A stretch of DNA of 64,000 nucleotides from an uncultured Clostridia bacterium. GTDB taxonomy: Bacteria > Bacillota > Clostridia > TANB77 > CAG-508. The translations under genes were made by a program, and so were the position numbers. Shown here one piece after another: positions 24,524 to 32,912 of this stretch. Under the pieces are notes generated by a model. The model saw nothing but the letters and a program-made list of their open reading frames with translations. It searched no databases and was not told the origin of the DNA. Every line of letters begins with the position of its first letter. Position 1 is the stretch's first letter. The stretch covers positions 48,460 to 112,459 of the forward strand of contig CAKPOF010000003.1 of NCBI GenBank assembly GCA_934169725.1, in the 5' to 3' direction.

Positions 24524-24611
24524 GCAGATGTGGCGGAACTGGTAGACGCACAGGACTTAAAATCCTGCGGTTGAATAAACCGTGCCGGTTCGATTCCGGC
24601 CATCTGCACCA
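24524..24611 (+). tRNA. tRNA-Leu (anticodon TAA) with a long variable arm and an encoded CCA.
   Basis: Acceptor stem gcagatg/catctgc, anticodon loop cttaaaa, long variable arm and T-arm ggttcgattcc. There is a TTGACA-N17-TATAAT promoter at 24461-24490. Confidence 0.9.
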
Positions 24612-24667
24612 TTAGAACCTCAAGTAGTTCGTAAGATATGCTTGAGGTTTTAATTTATAAAAATTTT

Positions 24668-24770
24668 GTAGTTCTACAAAAAGTTCTACAAAATTGACAA
24701 CATTTTATTTTTATAAAATCTTTATTTAGTGGCTTAAATAAGGATTTTTTATTTTCTAACAGTTCTAACA
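24668..24770. repeat. Cluster of direct GTTCTACAAAA / GTTCTAACAA repeats between the tRNA and the integrase gene. These are putative integrase arm-type sites.
   Basis: tagttctacaaaaagttctacaaaat at 24668-24693 and ttctaacagttctaaca at 24754-24770. The same tandem motif recurs at 30374-30398. Confidence 0.5.
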
Positions 24771-24778
24771 ATTTTTAT

Positions 24779-26011
24779 TTATAACTCCATTTCTTCATCT
24801 TCTTCGTCATCATCTTGACTAGGATCAATAAAGTTTAAACTATTACCAATTACTAAGGCAGAATTTTGTTTTGACTCTGTATCTACATGAGTATATATAT
24901 TCGCTGCAGTATTGTAACTAGAATGACCTAACCATATTTGAATATCTTTCATACTTACTTTATTTGATAGTAATAAACTAGCACACGAATGTCTTAAATC
25001 ATGAAATCTAATAGGTTTTAAGTTATTATTTTTTAGTATTTGATTAAACTTATGTGAAACATAGTCAGGCTTTAGTATAGAGCCATCTATATTCACACAA
25101 ACATAGCCATTGTCATTTAAGTATGATTTTTTAAATACTTTCTTATTGTATTCTTGATTTGCCTTTTCTTCTAAAAGTATTTCTTCTATTTCTGGAATTA
25201 ATGGCAATGTCCTATAACTTGATTGATTTTTAGTTTTATCTTCTGCAACAATTTGCAATTTACCATCTACTTTTGTTTGTGAAATGGTATGTCTAATTAT
25301 AATTGTTTTATTATCAAAATCAACGGCATTCCATTTAATACCAAGTGCTTCACTTCGCCTAAGTCCATAATATAAGGCTAAAAGAACAGGTAACTTAATA
25401 GGTGTGTCTTTTATTGCAACTAATAATTCATTTAGTTGTGCTTTATTGTAATAGGTTGCTATGTATTGTTCCTTTTTAGGCTTATCTATTTTGTCTGCTG
25501 GATTGGTTAGTATCAATTCACATTTTACTGCATATTGCAATGCTTTTCTAATATTTGCGTGATAGCGAAGAATCGTATTACCTTTCAAACCTAAGTTATA
25601 TAATTCTGTGTAAAAATCTTGAATATGATAAGGCTTTAAATCTTTTAAGGAAACATCTAATTTCTTAAAATAGTTATATACTTTACCTTTTACAATTCTT
25701 TCATAACCTGCATAAGTAGTTTTTACAACTCTAGGTTTTATAATATCTAGCCAATTTATCATAAAATCACAAAATTTTATATTAGCTTTATTATTTATAT
25801 CTAACCCAGAAATAGTTAGTTTTTCATTTAGAGTTTTTTCATATTCATGTCTTATTTCTTCAACTTTTCTTTCTGCAAGTTTCTTATTGTTCTTAACTTT
25901 TAATTTAGTGGAAATCCACTTTCGCTGTATATTATTAAATTCATCTTTATAATATAAAACAGCATAATAAATATTTTTCTTTTGCTGTAATGTAGCTGTT
26001 ACCGTTATCAT
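24779..26011 (-). CDS. int: Tyrosine-type site-specific integrase.
   Basis: 410 aa. The C-terminal catalytic region has R...HDLRHSCASLLL...GHSSYNTAANIYTHV (R-H-R-Y). Confidence 0.9.
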   Translation of the reverse strand: MITVTATLQQKKNIYYAVLYYKDEFNNIQRKWISTKLKVKNNKKLAERKVEEIRHEYEKTLNEKLTISGLDINNKANIKFCDFMINWLDIIKPRVVKTTYAGYERIVKGKVYNYFKKLDVSLKDLKPYHIQDFYTELYNLGLKGNTILRYHANIRKALQYAVKCELILTNPADKIDKPKKEQYIATYYNKAQLNELLVAIKDTPIKLPVLLALYYGLRRSEALGIKWNAVDFDNKTIIIRHTISQTKVDGKLQIVAEDKTKNQSSYRTLPLIPEIEEILLEEKANQEYNKKVFKKSYLNDNGYVCVNIDGSILKPDYVSHKFNQILKNNNLKPIRFHDLRHSCASLLLSNKVSMKDIQIWLGHSSYNTAANIYTHVDTESKQNSALVIGNSLNFIDPSQDDDEEDEEMEL

Positions 26012-26049: not shown

Positions 26050-26256
26050 TCAATTTTGACTTATTATGTATGAAATTATATTAGCTTTTGGAATTTTATA
26101 TTGTCTGCCTATTTTCATAGCTTTTATTTTGTTTTCCTTAATAAGCCTATAAGCTAGTGTTAAACTAATTCCACCTAACATATTTCGCATTTGTTCAATG
26201 TTTATAATATCTGGGTAATTTGTAAACATGATAGAATATTGTTCTTTTACATCCAT
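26050..26256 (-). CDS. xis: Excisionase / HTH_17-family DNA-binding protein.
   Basis: 68 aa, ...IINIEQMRNMLGGISLTLAYRLIKENKIKAMKIGRQYKIPKANI. Confidence 0.55.
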   Translation of the reverse strand: MDVKEQYSIMFTNYPDIINIEQMRNMLGGISLTLAYRLIKENKIKAMKIGRQYKIPKANIISYIISQN

Positions 26257-27006: not shown

Positions 27007-27243
27007 TTAATCTTCCTCTACATCTTTAAATAATTTATCTGTAAAAAATTCATTTAATTCAATACCTAATCCTTCACATAGATGTAATAAAGTAACAAGT
27101 TTTGGACTTTGACTTTTTCCATAAAATATACTAAAAACTGTAGAATATGATAATACAGAATTAGTTGCCAACTTATTTAATGTTATATTTTGTTCTTTAC
27201 AAAGATTTATAATTCTTTTTTGAACAGCCTCTGAAAGTTGCAT
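27007..27243 (-). CDS. XRE/cI-like HTH repressor of the element.
   Basis: 78 aa, QKRIINLCKEQNITLNKLATNSVLSYSTVFSIFYG. It is divergent from the cargo genes, with operators downstream of its start. Confidence 0.7.
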   Translation of the reverse strand: MQLSEAVQKRIINLCKEQNITLNKLATNSVLSYSTVFSIFYGKSQSPKLVTLLHLCEGLGIELNEFFTDKLFKDVEED

Positions 27244-27818: not shown

Positions 27819-28019
27819 TTATTTTTGTAATTTCTCTAATTCTTCTTTATCTTTTTCATCTAGATTATTTAGGCTAAATTCTAATAAAGAAATTACAACT
27901 TTATTAAAAGATAAGTTTTTGAGATTAGCAAGATTTTGTATATCTTCTACTATATTTTCTGGCAATCTAAGAGTTTTGCTAACTCCACTATGATTTTCTG
28001 GTATTCTTAGCTTATTCAT
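27819..28019 (-). CDS. Small putative ribbon-helix-helix (Arc/CopG-like) DNA-binding protein.
   Basis: 66 aa. An N-terminal beta-strand-like segment KTLRLPENIVEDIQNLA is followed by helices. Confidence 0.3.
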   Translation of the reverse strand: MNKLRIPENHSGVSKTLRLPENIVEDIQNLANLKNLSFNKVVISLLEFSLNNLDEKDKEELEKLQK

Positions 28020-28157: not shown

Positions 28158-29495
28158 ATGAAGAAACTAAAAGAAGAATTAAAGTATGGTAAAAGAGGTA
28201 TTACTCTTATTTCTCTTGTCGTTACAATAGTTGTTTTATTAATTTTAGCAGGAGTAACAATAGCAACATTAACAGGAGATAATGGAATTCTATCAAGAGC
28301 GAGTGAGGCTAAAGAAAGAACAGGACAAGCAAATGCAGAAGAACAAGTAGAAATAGCAGTAACAGGAAGTATAGGAACAGATGGAAATATTCATTATGGG
28401 GATTTGAAAACAAACTTAGATAAAATATCAAATATAACAGGAGTACCAGATGAAATAATAGATAGCAGTTTTCCTATAGCAGTTAAGGTAGATGGGTATG
28501 ATGTGACAATCAAAAGAGATGGTAGTGTTATATTAGGGGAATATATAGTGCCAGGAAATCCGGATAAAACTACAGGTATATTTAAAGAAACAAGTACAAT
28601 TAATGGTGAAGAAGGAAATAAAAACAATCCTGTTATACCAGAAGGATTTAAGCCTATAAATGAAGGAAATGCCAATTGGGGAGATGGAACAACAGAACCA
28701 CCTGGCATTAATGAAGGATTAGTAATAGAAGATGGTGAAGGAAATCAATATGTATGGATATCTGTAGATGGTGTAATAGGAAAAAATGGAAAAACACTGC
28801 AAAATGCAGTAGATAGAGAAATTATATTAGGAAGATATTTATTTGAAACAGGAGGAAAAATAAATACAACATTAAGTCCATCTTCATTAGGAGGAGATTT
28901 AAAGCTAACAACTACAGATACTACCATATATAGGGAAATGACAGAAAAATCAAAAAATAATACAATAGCTAAGGATATAAATAGATTTATAGATAGTGTA
29001 GAAAAAAATGGAGGATATTATATATCTAGATTTGAGGCAAGCGAAGGTGATGATGGTAAAGCTGACAGTAAATACAATCAAGTTGTTTGGGCAAACATAA
29101 CACAACCAGATGCTGCAAATGCATGTTTAGATTTATATACAAGTATCGAAAGTGATTTAATCAATAGTTATGCATGGGACACAGCTGTTTTATTTATACA
29201 AAAAAACTCAGGAGATTCAGATTATTCAAGACAGGCAAGATTACAAAATACTTTAGCAAATACAGGGAAAGCTACAAATGGAAGTAGTTATGATATTAGA
29301 TGCAATATATATGATATGGCAGGAAATTGCAGAGAATGGACAACTGAAACGTCTAGTTTTGTTGGCGGACCAACAGTTACAAGGGGTGGAGAATATTTGT
29401 ATCGCAGTAATTATACAACTACTCGAGGAAATAATTCAGAGATGCTCCAAAAACCTAATTTTTCGTTTCGTTCCATTTTATATATTAATAATTAA
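28158..29495 (+). CDS. Membrane-anchored protein with a pilin-like N-terminus and a C-terminal FGE-sulfatase / C-type-lectin-fold (SUMF1-, DUF1566-like) domain.
   Basis: N-terminus KRGITLISLVVTIVVLLILAGV (prepilin-like, but lacks Glu+5). C-terminal motifs VVWANITQPDAANAC, YAWDTAV, YDMAGNCREWT (GNVWEWT-like) and TRGGEY...FSFRS (RGGSW...GFR-like). Confidence 0.5.
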   Translation: MKKLKEELKYGKRGITLISLVVTIVVLLILAGVTIATLTGDNGILSRASEAKERTGQANAEEQVEIAVTGSIGTDGNIHYGDLKTNLDKISNITGVPDEIIDSSFPIAVKVDGYDVTIKRDGSVILGEYIVPGNPDKTTGIFKETSTINGEEGNKNNPVIPEGFKPINEGNANWGDGTTEPPGINEGLVIEDGEGNQYVWISVDGVIGKNGKTLQNAVDREIILGRYLFETGGKINTTLSPSSLGGDLKLTTTDTTIYREMTEKSKNNTIAKDINRFIDSVEKNGGYYISRFEASEGDDGKADSKYNQVVWANITQPDAANACLDLYTSIESDLINSYAWDTAVLFIQKNSGDSDYSRQARLQNTLANTGKATNGSSYDIRCNIYDMAGNCREWTTETSSFVGGPTVTRGGEYLYRSNYTTTRGNNSEMLQKPNFSFRSILYINN

Positions 29496-29580
29496 TAACA
29501 GATGTATAAAGAGATACAGTATAAACTATTTTTGTAGTTTAATACTGTATTTTTTGTTCACACAAAATTCACAAAATATT

Positions 29581-29657
29581 TTAGCAGAAAGTATTGACAA
29601 GTGCTAAAATGGGGTATAATATATAGAAAGTTAGCAGACAAACAAAAAGAGTGCTAA
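29581..29657 (+). promoter_or_regulatory. sigmaA promoter (TTGACA 29594-29599, TATAAT 29615-29620) flanked by two CIRCE-like inverted repeats.
   Basis: TTAGCAGAA-N9-AAGTGCTAA at 29581-29607 and TTAGCAGAC-N9-GAGTGCTAA at 29631-29657. The CIRCE consensus is TTAGCACTC-N9-GAGTGCTAA. Confidence 0.65.
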
Positions 29658-29690
29658 AAACTAACAATTAAAACTAAAGAGGCGAAAAAA

Positions 29691-30056
29691 TTGTTAGATG
29701 ATAGAAAAAAGAAAGTATTACAATCAATCGTAGAAGAATATATTAATACAGCAGAACCAGTTAGTTCAAATGCATTAACAACCAATCATGGATTAGATTG
29801 TAGTAGTGCAACCATTAGAAATGAAATGGCGGATTTGGAAAAGGCAGGTTATTTGGACAAAACCCATACATCAAGTGGTATGGTGCTTTCTGAAAAAGGA
29901 TACAGATATTATGTAGATGAGTTGTTAAAAGATGATGACATTAGCTTAGAGGAAATCAAATATATTAGTGATAAATTAGAAACAAAAGTAAATAATATAT
30001 ATGATTTAGCAGTAAATGTAGGAGAATTTTTAAAGTTTGGCAATAAAAAATATTAA
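29691..30056 (+). CDS. Stand-alone HrcA N-terminal winged-helix DNA-binding domain (121 aa). It lacks the HrcA middle and C-terminal domains.
   Basis: MLDDRKKKVLQSIVEEYINTAEPVSSNALTT...SSATIRNEMADLEKAGYLDKTHTSSG...KGYRYYVDELL matches the HrcA N-terminus closely. TTG start after an AAAGAGG RBS. Confidence 0.7.
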   Translation: MLDDRKKKVLQSIVEEYINTAEPVSSNALTTNHGLDCSSATIRNEMADLEKAGYLDKTHTSSGMVLSEKGYRYYVDELLKDDDISLEEIKYISDKLETKVNNIYDLAVNVGEFLKFGNKKY

Positions 30057-30263: not shown

Positions 30264-30373
30264 AATTAACCTCCAATTATATAATTGTGCGAGAATCTCT
30301 TATACAATAGTATTATAGCATAAATTCCTGAAAATTGTCATTTTTTAGTGGAAATAATAAAAGAATCCTTTTT

Positions 30374-30398
30374 TAGTTCTACAAAAGTTCTACAAAAA
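30374..30398. repeat. Right-end copy of the tandem GTTCTACAAAA arm-type repeat.
   Basis: tagttctacaaaagttctacaaaaat, matching 24668-24693. Confidence 0.5.
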
Positions 30399-30546
30399 TT
30401 TAAAAATTTTTGATAGTTGCCAAAAATAAAAAAATATTGTATAATCTAAATGAAATTGAAAGAAAGTTAGAAAAAAGGCTTATTTGATATTTATAAATGG
30501 TGCTAAATAATGCTAAAAAATTTTAAGTAATAATTATTTGATTTTT

Positions 30547-30603
30547 CTTAAAATCCTGCGAGGGTTAAACCTCGTGCCGGTTCGATTCCGGCCATCTGCG
30601 CCA
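30547..30603 (+). repeat. attR: partial direct repeat of the tRNA-Leu 3' half (anticodon loop to the 3' end) with a diverged variable arm.
   Basis: cttaaaatcctgcg-agggttaaacctc-gtgccggttcgattccggccatctgcgcca, compared with the tRNA at 24556-24611. Confidence 0.75.
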
Positions 30604-30615
30604 CAGTAATATCAA

Positions 30616-30960
30616 GTGTTTTGTAAAATTCCACTTGGTATTATTTTTTTTGCTTTTTTCAGAGTTCTAATGAAAAAGATACAAGGAATACTAACTTTTA
30701 CTATTGAAGATGATAACGGAAAATTTAGAAATTATGGAGAAGCTGTTTATGATGGGGATATTCAAATATTTATGGCTCCACCTCATAGAATGGTTTCAGC
30801 ATTAATGGATAACTTATACACAAGTAGAAATGGCTAAAACACTTGATTTAACAAGAGATGGCATATCATATAATATTAAAATTCTAAAAGAAAAAGGCGT
30901 AATTGAAAGAATTGGTTCTACTAAAAATGGAATTTGGAAAATGTACAATTTTGTCCATCA
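30616..30960 (+). pseudogene. Fragments of a degraded regulator of the divergent-AAA (AlbA_2) / HATPase_c_4 type. The C-terminal winged-helix part is in a different frame.
   Basis: ...GEAVYDGDIQIFMAPPHRMVSALMDNLYTSRNG, then in another frame MAKTLDLTRDGISYNIKILKEKGVIERIGSTKNGIWKM. Confidence 0.3.
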
Positions 30961-31382
30961 ACAAATTTGAAAAATTGTACATTTTTGTATTGACATTAAC
31001 ATATTGTCTTGATGAATGCTATAAAGTATCCGGAAGGCTTCTATGGTGTTGTAAAGAATCAAAGGAAAAAAGTAAGAAAGTTATTCTTACAAATCCTTTG
31101 GATTGCAAAAATAAAATTAATCTAAAGGGAATGATTGCCAAATGGAAAGGTACAGGACACATTGAGTGGGAATTTATTTTAGCAGGATTATTCATTCATG
31201 ATGTTGTTAATGCAATTGAGAATGATGATCAAGAAGCGGACCTTACTTTCATGTTTAATCTTGACTTTCATGATAAGAATGGTAATACATTTACTGCACA
31301 GCAGGTATATGATCACTTAATTAAATCATTTACTATTGTTGATGAAACAGATACAGAATTGAAACTTAAGTTCTGTATTTAA
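30903..31382 (+). CDS. Hypothetical protein. The true start may be internal, for example at MIAKWKG.
   Basis: ORF with no recognisable domain, followed by a hairpin/T-run at 31395-31440. Confidence 0.25.
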   Translation: MKELVLLKMEFGKCTILSINKFEKLYIFVLTLTYCLDECYKVSGRLLWCCKESKEKSKKVILTNPLDCKNKINLKGMIAKWKGTGHIEWEFILAGLFIHDVVNAIENDDQEADLTFMFNLDFHDKNGNTFTAQQVYDHLIKSFTIVDETDTELKLKFCI

Positions 31383-31617: not shown

Positions 31618-31971
31618 ATGTTTAGTAGAAGACATTGTTGTTGTATGAATAACAATTATTCAGATAATATGTGTGAATTACAAAATGATATTATAGAAAA
31701 AAAATGTAATAATGTAATATCATATGAAGATAATTCAGATAGTTGCGATTGTGGATTTGATGAAGAGCAAAGTGTTTTTCCTGAAAACCCAATGTTAGCA
31801 CAAAGTTATGTTCCAATTCAATATATGGATAGAACATTTAAACCAGGAGTAGGGTTAAAAATGGGAACTATTTTTCCAGAATTAGTAAGCCCCTATTCAC
31901 CTTGTCAATCAATGGAAGAAATAAATTATATTGCTATGAGGAATGAAATAGGAAAGGGGTGCAACAGATGA
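31618..31971 (+). CDS. cotJA: Spore coat-associated protein CotJA.
   Basis: ...VFPENPMLAQSYVPIQYMDRTFKPGVGLKMGTIFPELVSPY matches the CotJA conserved region. RBS AAAGGAGG. Confidence 0.75.
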   Translation: MFSRRHCCCMNNNYSDNMCELQNDIIEKKCNNVISYEDNSDSCDCGFDEEQSVFPENPMLAQSYVPIQYMDRTFKPGVGLKMGTIFPELVSPYSPCQSMEEINYIAMRNEIGKGCNR

Positions 31972-32315
31972 TTATGAATGAAAATAGAGAATGTGGATGT
32001 AATAATGAAGAAATGTTTTCGACAAATCAAGAACAAGAAAAAATAGAAAATGATAGAAATATGGAATGTAATCAAAGAAGAGAAATGGCTATGCAAATAA
32101 GAAATTATGAATTTGCAATTACAGAATTAGCTCTATATTTAGATACACATCCAACAGATCAAAAAGCATTGTGTTTGCACAGAAAATATTGCAAAGAATG
32201 TAAAGAATTAAAAGATAAATATCAAAAAGTATATGGACCATTAACAATAAATTATCCATGCAATAAATGGAGATGGCTAGAAGAACCATGGCCATGGGAA
32301 AGGGGGAATTATTAA
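31959..32315 (+). CDS. cotJB: Spore coat protein CotJB. The true start is possibly the ATG at 31968 or a later one.
   Basis: ...MAMQIRNYEFAITELALYLDTHPTDQKALCLHRKYCKECKELKDKY...WPWERG. Confidence 0.75.
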   Translation: MQQMIMNENRECGCNNEEMFSTNQEQEKIENDRNMECNQRREMAMQIRNYEFAITELALYLDTHPTDQKALCLHRKYCKECKELKDKYQKVYGPLTINYPCNKWRWLEEPWPWERGNY

Positions 32316-32912
32316 ATGTGGACATATAATAAAATGTTGCAATATCCTATTAATATAAAGTGTACAGATCCACGATTAGCAAAAGTTATTATTTCACAAT
32401 ATGGAGGTCCAGATGGAGAACTTAGTGCAGCACTTAGATATTTGTCTCAAAGATTTGGAATGCCAGATCAAAAAGCAAAGGCAATTTTAAATGATATAGG
32501 TACAGAAGAATTAGCTCACTTAGAAATGGTAGGAACTATAGTACACCAATTAACAAAAGGAGCGTCAATAGAAGAAATAGAAAAAGCAGGATTAGGTGCG
32601 TATTATACAGATCATGGTGTTGATGTTTATCCTCAATCAGCGGCCGGAGTACCATTTGATGCAACATGTCTAGCATGCAAAGGTGACCCTGTAGCAAATT
32701 TACAGGAAAATTTAGCTGCAGAACAAAAAGCGAGGGCTACGTATGAAAAATTAATAGATTTATGTAGAGACAATCCGGATGTAATTGACCCATTGAGATA
32801 TTTAAGAGAAAGAGAAGTTGTTCATTTCCAAAGATTTGGAGAAGCATTGCGTGGAGTTCAAGATAAATTAGCTGAAAGAAAATTTTACATGAATGATATG
32901 AAAAAATGTTAA
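32316..32912 (+). CDS. cotJC: Spore coat protein CotJC (manganese-catalase family).
   Basis: MWTYNKMLQYPINIKCTDPRLAKVIISQYGGPDGELSAALRYLSQRF...EELAHLEMVGTIV is the diagnostic CotJC / Mn-catalase motif. Confidence 0.9.
   Translation: MWTYNKMLQYPINIKCTDPRLAKVIISQYGGPDGELSAALRYLSQRFGMPDQKAKAILNDIGTEELAHLEMVGTIVHQLTKGASIEEIEKAGLGAYYTDHGVDVYPQSAAGVPFDATCLACKGDPVANLQENLAAEQKARATYEKLIDLCRDNPDVIDPLRYLREREVVHFQRFGEALRGVQDKLAERKFYMNDMKKC

What the first reader, a model, noticed from the sequence alone, without database searches (positions are those of the whole stretch)
28158..29495. Island cargo: pilin-like N-terminus fused to an FGE-sulfatase / C-type-lectin-fold domain
The 445-aa protein starts like a type IV pilin or pseudopilin (KRGITLISLVVTIVVLLILAGVTIATLTG), but has Ser where the conserved Glu+5 would be. 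It ends in a domain with the hallmark FGE/SUMF1 motifs (YDMAGNCREWT and TRGGEY...FRS, plus an upstream VVWANITQPDAANAC / YAWDTAV).

FGE-fold (formylglycine-generating enzyme / DUF1566-like) modules in surface-exposed, non-enzymatic contexts act as ligand-binding or sensor domains. The pairing with a prepilin-like anchor on a mobile island, next to a small RHH-like gene and an XRE gene, suggests an accessory surface, adhesion or exclusion function. It is unlikely to be sulfatase maturation.
Basis: partly seen in the sequence, partly recalled or inferred. Interest (0 to 1): 0.5.

Follow-up and report, generated by a model that had tools for sequence, protein, structure and literature searches.

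The report
Frozen copy of a hypervariable surface lectin
The gene encodes a membrane-anchored, lectin-fold binding protein from a large gut-Clostridia family whose binding tip is normally rewritten by a retroelement, but this island-borne copy has no such retroelement nearby and its tip is fixed, so it is an ordinary though instructive member of a known kind.

Summary
Structure prediction and fold search confirm a C-terminal FGE-like / C-type-lectin fold. It lacks the catalytic cysteines, so it is not a sulfatase-maturing enzyme.

Relatives (30-60% identical, more than 7000 database hits, all uncultured gut Clostridia) are target proteins of diversity-generating retroelements (DGRs). Several sit beside MSL-Avd-reverse transcriptase cassettes, with template repeats that differ from the gene's 3' end almost only at template adenines. 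Relatives with near-identical scaffolds differ at about 20 discrete positions in residues 398-436.

The window copy is a non-diversifying member:
- No RT or template repeat lies in the 64 kb.
- The identical protein recurs on many metagenome contigs.
- Its clade keeps the variable region nearly constant.
- The variable region's composition has drifted towards the genome average.

The gene is cargo of a 6-kb tRNA-Leu integrative island.

Verdict: a surface ligand-binding protein, and a new member of a known kind.

The parts
28158..29495 (+). Gene for the 445-aa protein (leader, small alpha/beta module, linker, FGE/C-type-lectin-fold domain)
   Evidence: ORF list. More than 7236 homologues. AlphaFold model with pLDDT 85.8.
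28158..28274 (+). Leader: basic N-terminus (aa 1-13), invariant Gly14, then the hydrophobic helix I15-T39. It has the class-III (prepilin)-like motif G|ITLIS, with Ser at +5.
   Evidence: Sequence. N_methyl match at E=0.0047, below the cut-off. G14 is invariant and aa 15-45 are nearly invariant in the family. At +5, 79 leader-bearing ORFs have Ala 75, Ser 2, Val 1, Gly 1 and Glu 0. The family profile hits the N-termini of type IV pilins in PDB at E 0.014-0.6.
28275..28535 (+). Rest of the N-terminal module (aa 40-126): a second long helix (44-70), a short helix and a three-stranded sheet. It is shared with paralogues that carry other C-terminal domains.
28536..28712 (+). Linker of variable length (aa 127-185), rich in Gly, Asn, Pro and Thr
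   Evidence: Lower pLDDT and length variation in the alignment.
28713..29348 (+). Scaffold of the FGE-like / C-type-lectin-fold domain (aa 186-397)
   Evidence: Foldseek hits to CarF, TaqVP, PorK, ToxD, PvdO, TvpA and Mtd. Profile hits to SUMF2, CarF, PorK and PvdO that align the YDMxGNxxEWT and RGG motifs.
29349..29465 (+). Segment homologous to the family's DGR variable region (aa 398-436). In this copy it is fixed, not hypervariable.
   Evidence: It has the same length and scaffold residues as proven VRs. It is hypervariable in the family but constant in the window clade. Its composition is partly ameliorated, and the next 30 nt have GC 0.13.
24524..24611 (+). tRNA-Leu(UAA). Its 3' half (from 24556) is the attL-side repeat of the island.
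   Evidence: ARAGORN and Rfam. Repeats D1 and D19. Alignment.
24779..26011 (-). Tyrosine integrase of the island
   Evidence: Phage_integrase at E=2e-25.
26050..26256 (-). Excisionase-like HTH_17 gene
   Evidence: PF12728 at E=1e-8.
27007..27243 (-). XRE-type repressor gene
   Evidence: HTH_26 and HTH_3 matches.
27819..28019 (-). Small RHH/CopG-like gene, divergent from the target gene
   Evidence: Weak CopG_antitoxin match at E=0.004. It is conserved next to the gene in L092 and L099-L101.
30547..30603 (+). Displaced native 3' half of tRNA-Leu (attR side). This is the right end of the ~6-kb island.
   Evidence: Repeats. Alignment. The native junction of the 5' half with this 3' half exists intact in 59 gut-metagenome contigs.

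Best explanation
The gene encodes a cell-surface ligand-binding protein.

How it is built:
- A basic N-terminus and a roughly 25-residue hydrophobic helix insert it N-in / C-out.
- A helical stalk, a small alpha/beta module and a flexible linker hold out a C-terminal domain with the FGE-like C-type-lectin fold.
- The solvent-exposed C-terminal segment of that domain (aa 398-436) is the binding face.

Where it comes from: the protein belongs to a large paralogous family of uncultured gut Clostridia. In many members that segment is the variable region (VR) of a diversity-generating retroelement. The cassette is target-MSL-Avd-RT with a template repeat, and it acts next to the gene or on targets at a separate locus with no cassette within 10 kb.

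The window copy is a 'frozen' member. It has no cognate RT or template repeat in the window. Its VR is constant across many metagenome samples, and the VR's composition is drifting towards that of the genome. It therefore offers one fixed binding specificity. It is carried as cargo on a 6-kb tRNA-Leu integrative island.

What is shown: the fold, the family's DGR linkage, the lack of DGR parts in the window, the VR constancy, and the island structure.

What is inferred: surface exposure, ligand binding, and the nature of the ligand (probably a glycan or a surface protein of a host, a neighbouring cell or a particle). It is not resolved whether the leader is cleaved and assembled like a pilin or is just an anchor.
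For: Fold: the AlphaFold model has pLDDT 85.8. Its best PDB matches are FGE-fold proteins, including three solved DGR variable proteins: TaqVP 5vf4, TvpA 2y3c and Mtd 1yu1.

Family is DGR-targeted:
- L006 (P0028, 51% identical over 99% of the query) is followed by a MutS_I-like gene, bAvd and RVT_1. Its 137-nt TR/VR pair has 22 of 23 mismatches at TR adenines.
- L053 has 19 of 22 mismatches at TR adenines.
- L162 has the full cassette, with 24 of 29 at TR adenines.
- L055 and L081 have DGRs on paralogues that share only the N-terminal module.
- Targets with no cassette within 10 kb also exist. The TR of L162 matches the VRs of RT-less loci L005 and L161 (25 of 29 mismatches at A) and L008 (28 of 30).
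- Hypervariation is confined to the VR. Pairs at least 97% identical in aa 185-397 are only 59% identical in aa 398-436 (146 pairs), and the variation sits at about 20 discrete positions.

Window copy is not diversifying:
- No RT homologue and no TR lie in the 64 kb.
- A protein identical to the window's (P0121) was found in the same island context on all 23 contigs read, and is indexed in 66 blocks of the collection.
- The 15 listed members of the sister cluster P0004 vary at only 2 VR positions.
- VR identity to P0003 and P0004 is 0.77 and 0.74, against a family mean of 0.49-0.56 at comparable scaffold identity.
- The VR has GC 0.38, against 0.49-0.57 in three RT-linked or TR-matched VRs (L005, L006, L008). 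The 30 nt after it have GC 0.13, second lowest of 70.

Not an enzyme: there is no Cys in aa 409-438. Sequence matches are only to non-catalytic FGE-fold proteins.

Context in the literature: most cellular DGR targets are N-terminally membrane-anchored binding proteins (PMC8144416). FGE-sulfatase-type targets, MSL accessory genes and remote targets have been described (PMC5758913).
Against: - No direct evidence of surface exposure or of any ligand.
- There was no signal-peptide or topology predictor among the tools. The orientation rests on the positive-inside rule and on analogy.
- A DGR elsewhere in the genome cannot be excluded with a 64-kb window.
- Between the window and the 99.3%-identical contig L092, 4 of 14 nucleotide differences fall in the 117-nt VR, and 3 of those 4 are transversions. 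This is a weak hint of past or rare targeted change, or of diversifying selection.
- Pfam matches to both domains are below the curated cut-offs.
Confidence: 0.72

Rival explanations
1. The protein is a true modular type IV pilin or pseudopilin. A prepilin peptidase cleaves the leader after Gly14. Lacking Glu5, the subunit sits at the tip of a type IV filament and presents the lectin module, like GspK or the PilA/PilB/PilC tip complex of Streptococcus sanguinis. This concerns the N-terminus only and is compatible with the binding function above.
For: - The motif K-R-G|I-T-L-I-S plus a hydrophobic helix resembles G|FTLIE.
- Gly14 is invariant, and aa 15-45 are far more conserved than the rest of the protein (leader identity 0.76-0.97 against 0.28-0.90 for the adjacent module).
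- The same leader sits on paralogues with other C-terminal domains.
- N_methyl matches at E=0.0047, and 17 of 41 members match.
- The family profile hits pilin N-termini in PDB at E 0.014-0.6.
- Glu5-less pilins are known to cap filaments, and modular pilins with lectin modules exist (PMC9934059, PMC8179133).
Against: - Glu+5 is absent in all 79 leader-bearing ORFs examined, whereas most subunits of a filament need it.
- No canonical Glu5 pilin was found in about 1.4 Mb around family members, which includes the window. No assembly ATPase or platform protein (HofB/HofC-type) was found in the roughly 1.3 Mb of that set fetched by then (L001-L089 and the window).
- One source annotation, 'type II secretion system protein', is automatic.
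Confidence: 0.25
2. The window copy is still diversified, by a DGR located elsewhere in the chromosome and acting on it as a remote target.
For: - Remote targets exist in this very family and in the literature (PMC5758913).
- VR differences are mildly enriched between the window and L092: 4 of 14 differences, mostly transversions.
Against: - The identical protein is on many contigs from different samples.
- Asn (AAT) codons and 14 of about 20 family-hypervariable positions are fixed across a clade whose scaffold has diverged to 83%.
- There is no similarity to any of the five TRs recovered.
- The sequence just after the VR is AT-rich, where DGR-linked relatives are GC-richer.
Confidence: 0.07
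3. The protein is an enzyme of the FGE/SUMF1, EgtB or PvdO type (sulfatase maturation or another oxidative modification).
For: Weak PF03781 match. FGE-like fold.
Against: - There is no cysteine in the segment that corresponds to the catalytic Cys pair of FGE (aa 409-438 of the sequence). The position of that pair is taken from my knowledge of human FGE and was not checked with a tool.
- This segment is hypervariable in the family.
- The best sequence matches are to non-catalytic members: SUMF2, CarF, PorK and PvdO.
- No sulfatase lies nearby.
Confidence: 0.02
4. The protein is a phage or satellite function, such as a receptor-binding protein or a superinfection-exclusion factor expressed from the island.
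For: - It lies on an integrase-bearing element with XRE and RHH regulators.
- The leader alone matches a few PHROGs of unknown function and four viral contigs.
Against: - The island has no structural, replication or packaging genes.
- The FGE-like domain has no relatives in 2.9 million viral contigs.
- There is no PADLOC hit.
- In the contigs examined for six relatives (P0003, P0006, P0008, P0028, P0064, P0083) the gene has mainly housekeeping neighbours; several of these contigs also carry recombinase, TraG-like or IS genes.
Confidence: 0.05

Closest known systems
TvpA of Treponema denticola and other FGE-sulfatase-type DGR variable proteins ('category b' targets of Wu et al. 2018, PMC5758913)
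   Same: [quoted passage not shown]
- Non-catalytic.
- Multi-copy in the genome, with remote targets.
- Relatives of the window protein have proven TR/VR pairs and MSL-Avd-RT cassettes (architecture D).
   Different: - The window copy has no TR or RT within 64 kb and its VR is fixed.
- Sequence similarity to TvpA is detectable only by fold (Foldseek E 8e-3).
- It carries a pilin-like leader and a small N-terminal module that, as far as I recall, TvpA does not have; the paper consulted here (PMC5758913) does not describe TvpA's N-terminus, and this was not checked.
Membrane-anchored cellular DGR targets described by Roux et al. 2021 (PMC8144416)
   Same: N-terminal transmembrane segment plus an extracellular binding domain with a C-terminal lectin-fold VR. 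Host-associated (gut) bacteria.
   Different: That survey does not mention pili and describes the anchors only as a transmembrane domain or signal peptide. Here the leader is a highly conserved class-III-like motif without Glu5.
Modular type IV pilins PilB and PilC of Streptococcus sanguinis, and the Glu5-less tip pilins GspK and PilA (PMC8179133, PMC9934059)
   Same: A short pilin-like N-terminal moiety with a bulky adhesive or lectin module grafted at the C-terminus. Lack of Glu5 is known for subunits that cap filaments.
   Different: - PilB and PilC have canonical Glu5 and lie in a pil operon with the assembly machinery.
- Here no machinery was found nearby.
- The pilin fold is only weakly supported.
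- The whole family lacks Glu5.
DGR-diversified type V pilus adhesins of Bacteroides (Macadangdang et al., bioRxiv 10.1101/2024.11.15.621889)
   Same: Gut bacteria place DGR-variable lectin-fold modules on surface appendage subunits.
   Different: A different pilus system (type V, lipoprotein-type subunits) and a different phylum. That paper does not mention type IV pili or Clostridia.
tRNA-integrated genomic islands with a tyrosine integrase
   Same: A tRNA-Leu target, a duplicated tRNA 3' half, int next to the restored tRNA, an excisionase-like gene, and repeated arm-type motifs near both ends.
   Different: Very small (about 6 kb), with no replication, transfer or packaging genes. It carries a truncated hrcA with its CIRCE operators.

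Membership tests
DGR variable (target) protein, FGE/C-type-lectin type | C-terminal C-type-lectin / FGE-like fold | tested here: met
   AlphaFold model with pLDDT 85.8. Foldseek hits include TaqVP, TvpA and Mtd, and FGE-fold proteins. The PF03781 match is sub-threshold.
DGR variable (target) protein, FGE/C-type-lectin type | Homology to proteins with a demonstrated TR/VR pair | tested here: met
   P0028 in L006 is 51% identical over 99% of the query, with 22 of 23 TR/VR mismatches at TR adenines. L053 and L162 show the same pattern.
DGR variable (target) protein, FGE/C-type-lectin type | A cognate template repeat that differs from the VR at adenines | tested here: not met
   No repeat of 29200-29520 exists in the 64-kb window apart from a 34-nt, 79% match inside the hrcA fragment. 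There is no match to the five TRs recovered. The rest of the genome is not testable.
DGR variable (target) protein, FGE/C-type-lectin type | Reverse transcriptase and Avd nearby | tested here: not met
   tblastn with the L006 RT finds nothing in the window. The island genes are int, xis, HTH genes, an RHH gene and hrcA'.
DGR variable (target) protein, FGE/C-type-lectin type | Hypervariability of the VR among otherwise identical copies | tested here: not met
   The VR is identical in P0001, P0121, P0122 and the window. P0121 was found on 23 contigs read. The sister cluster varies at only 2 positions. In the rest of the family this feature is met.
Type IV pilin / pseudopilin (class III signal peptide) | Short basic leader ending in Gly, followed by about 20 hydrophobic residues | tested here: met
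   The sequence is MKKLKEELKYGKRG|ITLISLVVTIVVLLILAGVTIATL. Gly14 is invariant in the family.
Type IV pilin / pseudopilin (class III signal peptide) | Glu at position +5 of the mature protein | tested here: not met
   Ser here. In 79 family leaders the residue is Ala 75, Ser 2, Val 1, Gly 1 and Glu 0. Some capping minor pilins also lack it (PMC9934059).
Type IV pilin / pseudopilin (class III signal peptide) | N_methyl (PF07963) or TIGR02532 match above the curated cut-off | tested here: not met
   PF07963 scores 16.9 bits against a cut-off of 21.2. NCBIfam gives only GspG at E=0.084.
Type IV pilin / pseudopilin (class III signal peptide) | Pilin fold: a long alpha1 helix packed on an antiparallel sheet | tested here: inconclusive
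Type IV pilin / pseudopilin (class III signal peptide) | Prepilin peptidase, assembly ATPase and platform protein in the genome | tested here: inconclusive
   No HofB- or HofC-type homologues were found in about 1.3 Mb (the window plus loci L001-L089). The prepilin peptidase was not searched for.
Formylglycine-generating enzyme (FGE/SUMF1) | Catalytic cysteine pair between the RGGS and GFRC motifs | tested here: not met
   aa 409-438 (RGGEYLYRSNYTTTRGNNSEMLQKPNFSFR) contain no Cys. The segment is hypervariable in the family. The position of the Cys pair is from my knowledge of human FGE and was not checked with a tool.
Formylglycine-generating enzyme (FGE/SUMF1) | PF03781 above the gathering score | tested here: not met
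   17.8 bits against 23.3, covering only profile positions 165-249.
tRNA-integrated genomic island | Tyrosine integrase next to a tRNA gene, and a direct repeat of the tRNA 3' part at the far end | tested here: met
   The native tRNA form occurs in 59 metagenome contigs. An empty site in the same species was not found.

The most novel reading that the evidence does not exclude
The ultra-conserved Glu5-less 'G|ITLIA' leader may mark a lineage-specific type-IV-filament-like (class III signal) display system in small-genome gut Clostridia of the CAG-508 type. Dozens of paralogues with interchangeable C-terminal modules, many of them DGR-diversified lectin folds, would be cleaved and mounted at filament tips or on a pseudopilus. 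This would be a Gram-positive, type IV counterpart of the DGR-diversified type V pilus adhesins of Bacteroides. Fixed-specificity copies such as this one would then be traded on small integrative islands.
Probability: 0.18. Interest if true: 0.7.

Novelty: new member of a known kind. Interest (0 to 1): 0.35.

Why it matters
By itself the gene is an ordinary member of a known class: membrane-anchored, lectin-fold proteins of the kind that DGRs diversify.

Three points give it some value:
- One family contains the whole life-cycle of DGR targets: members beside a cassette, members diversified with no cassette within 10 kb, and 'frozen', compositionally decaying copies. This makes it a good system for studying how hypervariable binding proteins become fixed.
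- A fixed-specificity copy has been captured by a minimal tRNA-integrating island, which suggests that a successful binding specificity can be moved horizontally.
- The family's leader resembles a prepilin signal without Glu5 and is far more conserved than a plain anchor needs to be. If it is a true class III signal, it would link DGRs to type IV filaments in gut Firmicutes. No paper in the searched library makes that connection.

Tried and rejected
- **Template repeat in the window.** blastn with word size 7 of 29200-29520 against the window found only a 34-nt, 79% match at 29994-30027. That match lies in the hrcA fragment and does not show an adenine pattern, so I judged it chance.
- **RT in the window.** tblastn with the L006 RT found none.
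- **Window VR against recovered TRs.** The VR matched none of the five TRs from relatives. A by-eye codon comparison of the alignment with the L006 TR shows differences at both A and non-A sites, so it is uninformative.
- **Pilus machinery.** tblastn with E. coli HofB and HofC against the window and loci L001-L089 gave no hits. I did not search for a prepilin peptidase.
- **Foldseek of the N-terminal module against PDB.** Nothing significant.
- **Family in viral contigs.** Only the leader matches four contigs. There are no relatives of the FGE-like domain, so the phage receptor-binding-protein idea was dropped.
- **PADLOC on the protein and the small island genes.** No meaningful hit, so there is no support for a defence or exclusion role.
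- **Empty-site search for the island.** The predicted native tRNA junction occurs in 59 gut-metagenome contigs. None shares the window's left flank, and only six share fragments of the right flank at a distance. These are other species, so excision in this species is not shown.
- **DUF1566.** No match.
- **The gene after the target.** I considered that the 121-aa ORF might be the MutS-like DGR accessory gene seen in relatives. It is instead the first 100 residues of HrcA.
Full report
**Observation.** Pfam gives only sub-threshold matches. FGE-sulfatase scores E=0.0027, 17.8 bits against a cut-off of 23.3, over aa 371-435. N_methyl scores E=0.0047, 16.9 bits against 21.2, over aa 12-34. NCBIfam and PHROGs add nothing specific. 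The protein is nevertheless far from an orphan. It has more than 7236 homologues at E<=1e-3, almost all unnamed metagenome proteins. At least 497 relatives occur in species-representative genomes, all uncultured gut Clostridia or 'Clostridium sp. CAG:508'-type MAGs, and many MAGs carry several paralogues, some in tandem.

**Fold.** An AlphaFold model built on 41 homologues has mean pLDDT 85.8. From N to C it shows:
- a long hydrophobic helix (12-39)
- a second helix (44-69)
- a small alpha/beta unit (to about residue 126)
- a low-confidence linker
- a confidently modelled domain from about residue 186 to the end

Foldseek against PDB returns FGE-fold proteins: CarF, PorK, ToxD, PvdO and OvoA. 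It also returns the three solved DGR variable proteins TaqVP (5vf4), TvpA (2y3c) and Mtd (1yu1). A profile of the C-terminal domain aligns the YDMxGNxxEWT, RGG and FR motifs with SUMF2, CarF, PorK and PvdO at weak E-values. The segment between RGG and FR (aa 409-438) contains no cysteine. In FGE, to my knowledge, this is where the catalytic Cys pair sits. So the domain has the FGE-like C-type-lectin fold but is not an FGE enzyme.

**What the family is.** The decisive lead came from the gene neighbourhoods of homologues.
- P0028 (51% identical over 99% of the query) lies directly upstream of a MutS_I-like ORF, a bAvd gene and an RVT_1 reverse transcriptase. A 137-nt repeat links the 3' end of the P0028 gene to a copy downstream of the RT. 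Of its 23 mismatches, 22 are at adenines of the downstream copy. This is the signature of a diversity-generating retroelement, with a template repeat (TR) and a variable repeat (VR).
- L053 shows the same pattern, with 19 of 22 mismatches at TR adenines.
- L162 (P0057) carries a full target-MSL-bAvd-RT cassette, with 24 of 29 mismatches at TR adenines.
- L055 and L081 have DGRs whose targets share only the N-terminal module with the window protein and carry a different lectin-type C-terminus.

The target-MSL-avd-RT layout is 'architecture D' of Wu et al. 2018, who also describe FGE-sulfatase-type targets as the largest target class and document remote targets (PMC5758913).

Most family members have no RT within 10 kb: only 5 of 89 loci do. 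Many of them are still diversified. The TR of L162 matches the VRs of the RT-less loci L005 and L161 with 25 of 29 mismatches at TR adenines, and that of L008 with 28 of 30. Among 100 near-full-length family proteins, pairs at least 97% identical in the scaffold (aa 185-397) are on average only 59% identical in aa 398-436 (146 pairs). The variation is confined to about 20 discrete positions, flanked by invariant scaffold residues P405, V407, R409-G411, R423 and S436-R438.

**The window copy is a non-diversifying member.**
- The 64-kb window holds no RT homologue. It also holds no copy of the VR region, apart from a 34-nt, 79% match inside the neighbouring hrcA fragment that lacks an adenine pattern.
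- The window's VR matches none of the five TRs recovered.
- A protein identical to the window's (P0121) is recorded from NCBI, ENA and Logan. It was found, always in the same island context, on all 23 contigs read, and is indexed in 66 blocks of the collection.
- The two other members of its 90% cluster have the same VR. The 15 listed members of the sister cluster (P0004, 74% identical) vary at only two VR positions.
- Across the clade, 14 of the roughly 20 family-hypervariable positions are fixed, including the Asn AAT codons that DGRs typically mutate, even though the scaffold has diverged to 83%.
- VR identity to P0003 and P0004 is 0.77 and 0.74. The family mean at comparable scaffold identity is 0.49-0.56.
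- The window VR has GC 0.38 and A 0.32, between the scaffold (0.30 and 0.43) and RT-linked or TR-matched VRs such as L006, L005 and L008 (GC 0.49-0.57, A 0.19-0.23). The 30 nt after the VR, where DGR-linked relatives are GC-richer, have GC 0.13, the second lowest of 70.

There is one counter-hint. Between the window and the 99.3%-identical contig L092, 4 of 14 differences fall in the 117-nt VR, and 3 of those 4 are transversions. The numbers are too small to outweigh the rest. They could equally reflect selection on the binding face or old DGR activity.

**The N-terminus.** It is not Sec-like. The hydrophobic stretch is about 25 residues long and is preceded by a net-positive segment, which indicates an N-in / C-out orientation. 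It resembles a class III (prepilin) signal, G|ITLIS against the canonical G|FTLIE. Within the family it is remarkably conserved:
- Gly14 is invariant, and aa 15-45 are nearly so.
- Leader identity stays at 0.76-0.97 where the adjacent module falls to 0.28-0.35.
- The same leader heads paralogues of 125-723 residues counted from the leader's Gly, with other C-terminal domains.

Pilins without Glu5 are known as filament caps, and modular pilins with lectin modules exist in Streptococcus sanguinis (PMC9934059; PMC8179133). The pilin reading is therefore reasonable but unproven. I give it about 0.25. It concerns the mode of display, not the binding function. Roux et al. 2021 report that most cellular DGR targets have an N-terminal transmembrane segment or signal peptide and are probably membrane-anchored binders (PMC8144416). 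No paper in the searched library connects DGRs with type IV pilin-type leaders.

**The island.** tRNA-Leu(UAA) lies at 24524-24611. Its 3' half, from the anticodon loop onward, is repeated with a few differences at 30547-30603. Between the two copies lie:
- a tyrosine integrase (24779-26011, -)
- an HTH_17 excisionase-like gene
- small HTH genes
- an XRE repressor
- an 89-aa ORF
- a weak RHH/CopG-like gene divergent from the target gene
- the target gene itself
- a 121-aa ORF and a 55-aa ORF

A doubled GTTCTACAAAA motif sits just inside both ends and is likely to be integrase arm sites. The island has no replication, transfer or packaging genes. The native tRNA form, the 5' half joined to the attR-type 3' half, is found intact in 59 gut-metagenome contigs. 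These come from other species, so excision in this species is not demonstrated. In the contigs examined for six relatives of the protein (P0003, P0006, P0008, P0028, P0064, P0083), the gene has mainly housekeeping neighbours, although several of those contigs also carry recombinase, TraG-like or IS genes. Island carriage is thus a feature of this copy, not of the family.

**How it most likely works.** Shown: the fold, the family's DGR biology, the absence of DGR parts here, the VR constancy and the island anatomy. Inferred: the protein is inserted N-in / C-out, and may or may not be processed at Gly14. Its stalk and linker project the lectin-fold domain beyond the wall. Residues 398-436 bind one fixed ligand, probably a glycan or a surface protein of the host mucosa, a neighbouring cell or a particle. 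The island spreads this fixed specificity.

**Rivals.** These are continued diversification by a DGR elsewhere in the genome (0.07), an enzymatic role (0.02) and a phage or exclusion role (0.05). Each is argued against above.

**Verdict.** The gene is a new member of a known kind. Interest is moderate to low (0.35). The only potentially novel aspect is the family's Glu5-less prepilin-like leader.

Noticed in passing
window 29581-30056: The island carries a truncated hrcA. The 121-aa ORF at 29691-30056 matches positions 1-100 of 338 of TIGR00331 at E=1.3e-39. It is preceded by two CIRCE-like inverted repeats, TTAGCAGAA-N9-AAGTGCTAA at 29581-29607 and TTAGCAGAC-N9-GAGTGCTAA at 29631-29657. These flank a TTGACA-17-TAATAT promoter (29594-29622). 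It looks like a captured 5' end of a heat-shock operon and could titrate or mimic the host HrcA repressor.
   Followed up: partly
window 24664-24706 and 30369-30411: A doubled motif, GTTCTACAAAA(A)GTTCTACAAAA, lies just inside both island ends (repeat D2). It is plausibly a set of arm-type binding sites for the integrase or excisionase.
   Followed up: no
window 30616-30970: Short ORFs to the right of the island match, at about 95%, two pieces of a longer region. In six other gut contigs that region lies 1-2 kb downstream of the intact tRNA-Leu. This looks like the decayed remnant of another element or gene at the same tRNA site.
   Followed up: partly
L101 1257-2243: In one metagenome contig the same island has a different left flank, with a second integrase gene and a DUF805 gene. 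This suggests tandem or alternative elements at this tRNA site.
   Followed up: no
L055 12500-16600: A DGR next to a paralogue that shares only the N-terminal module. Downstream of its TR lie a group-II-intron-type RT (462 aa) and an HNH-like ORF. Beyond them, on the opposite strand, are a truncated DGR-type RT and a second MutS-like gene. Either the cassette has been disrupted or there are two cassettes.
   Followed up: no
L162 5051-13600: A complete DGR cassette (target-MSL-bAvd-RT-TR) of this family lies beside VirB4/TraG-like genes (AAA_10, P-loop_TraG). It is therefore probably on a conjugative element. Its TR also fits the VRs of chromosomal, RT-less paralogues in other contigs.
   Followed up: partly
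L094-L097 (IMG/VR contigs) and phrog_13280 / phrog_11263: The 'GITLIA'-type leader alone, without the lectin domain, also occurs on proteins of four viral contigs. It matches two PHROGs of unknown function at E 0.0025 and 0.015.
   Followed up: no
L001 16686, L031 16126, L072 1687 and others: The same leader heads much shorter proteins of 125-160 aa that could be pilin-sized subunits. They were not examined further. They would be the first candidates for a major subunit if a filament exists.
   Followed up: no
window 31618-32912: A cotJA-cotJB-cotJC (Mn-catalase-like) spore-coat operon lies directly to the right of the island (annotation of the identical context), and SpoVS lies to the left. 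The host is a low-GC spore-former.
   Followed up: no
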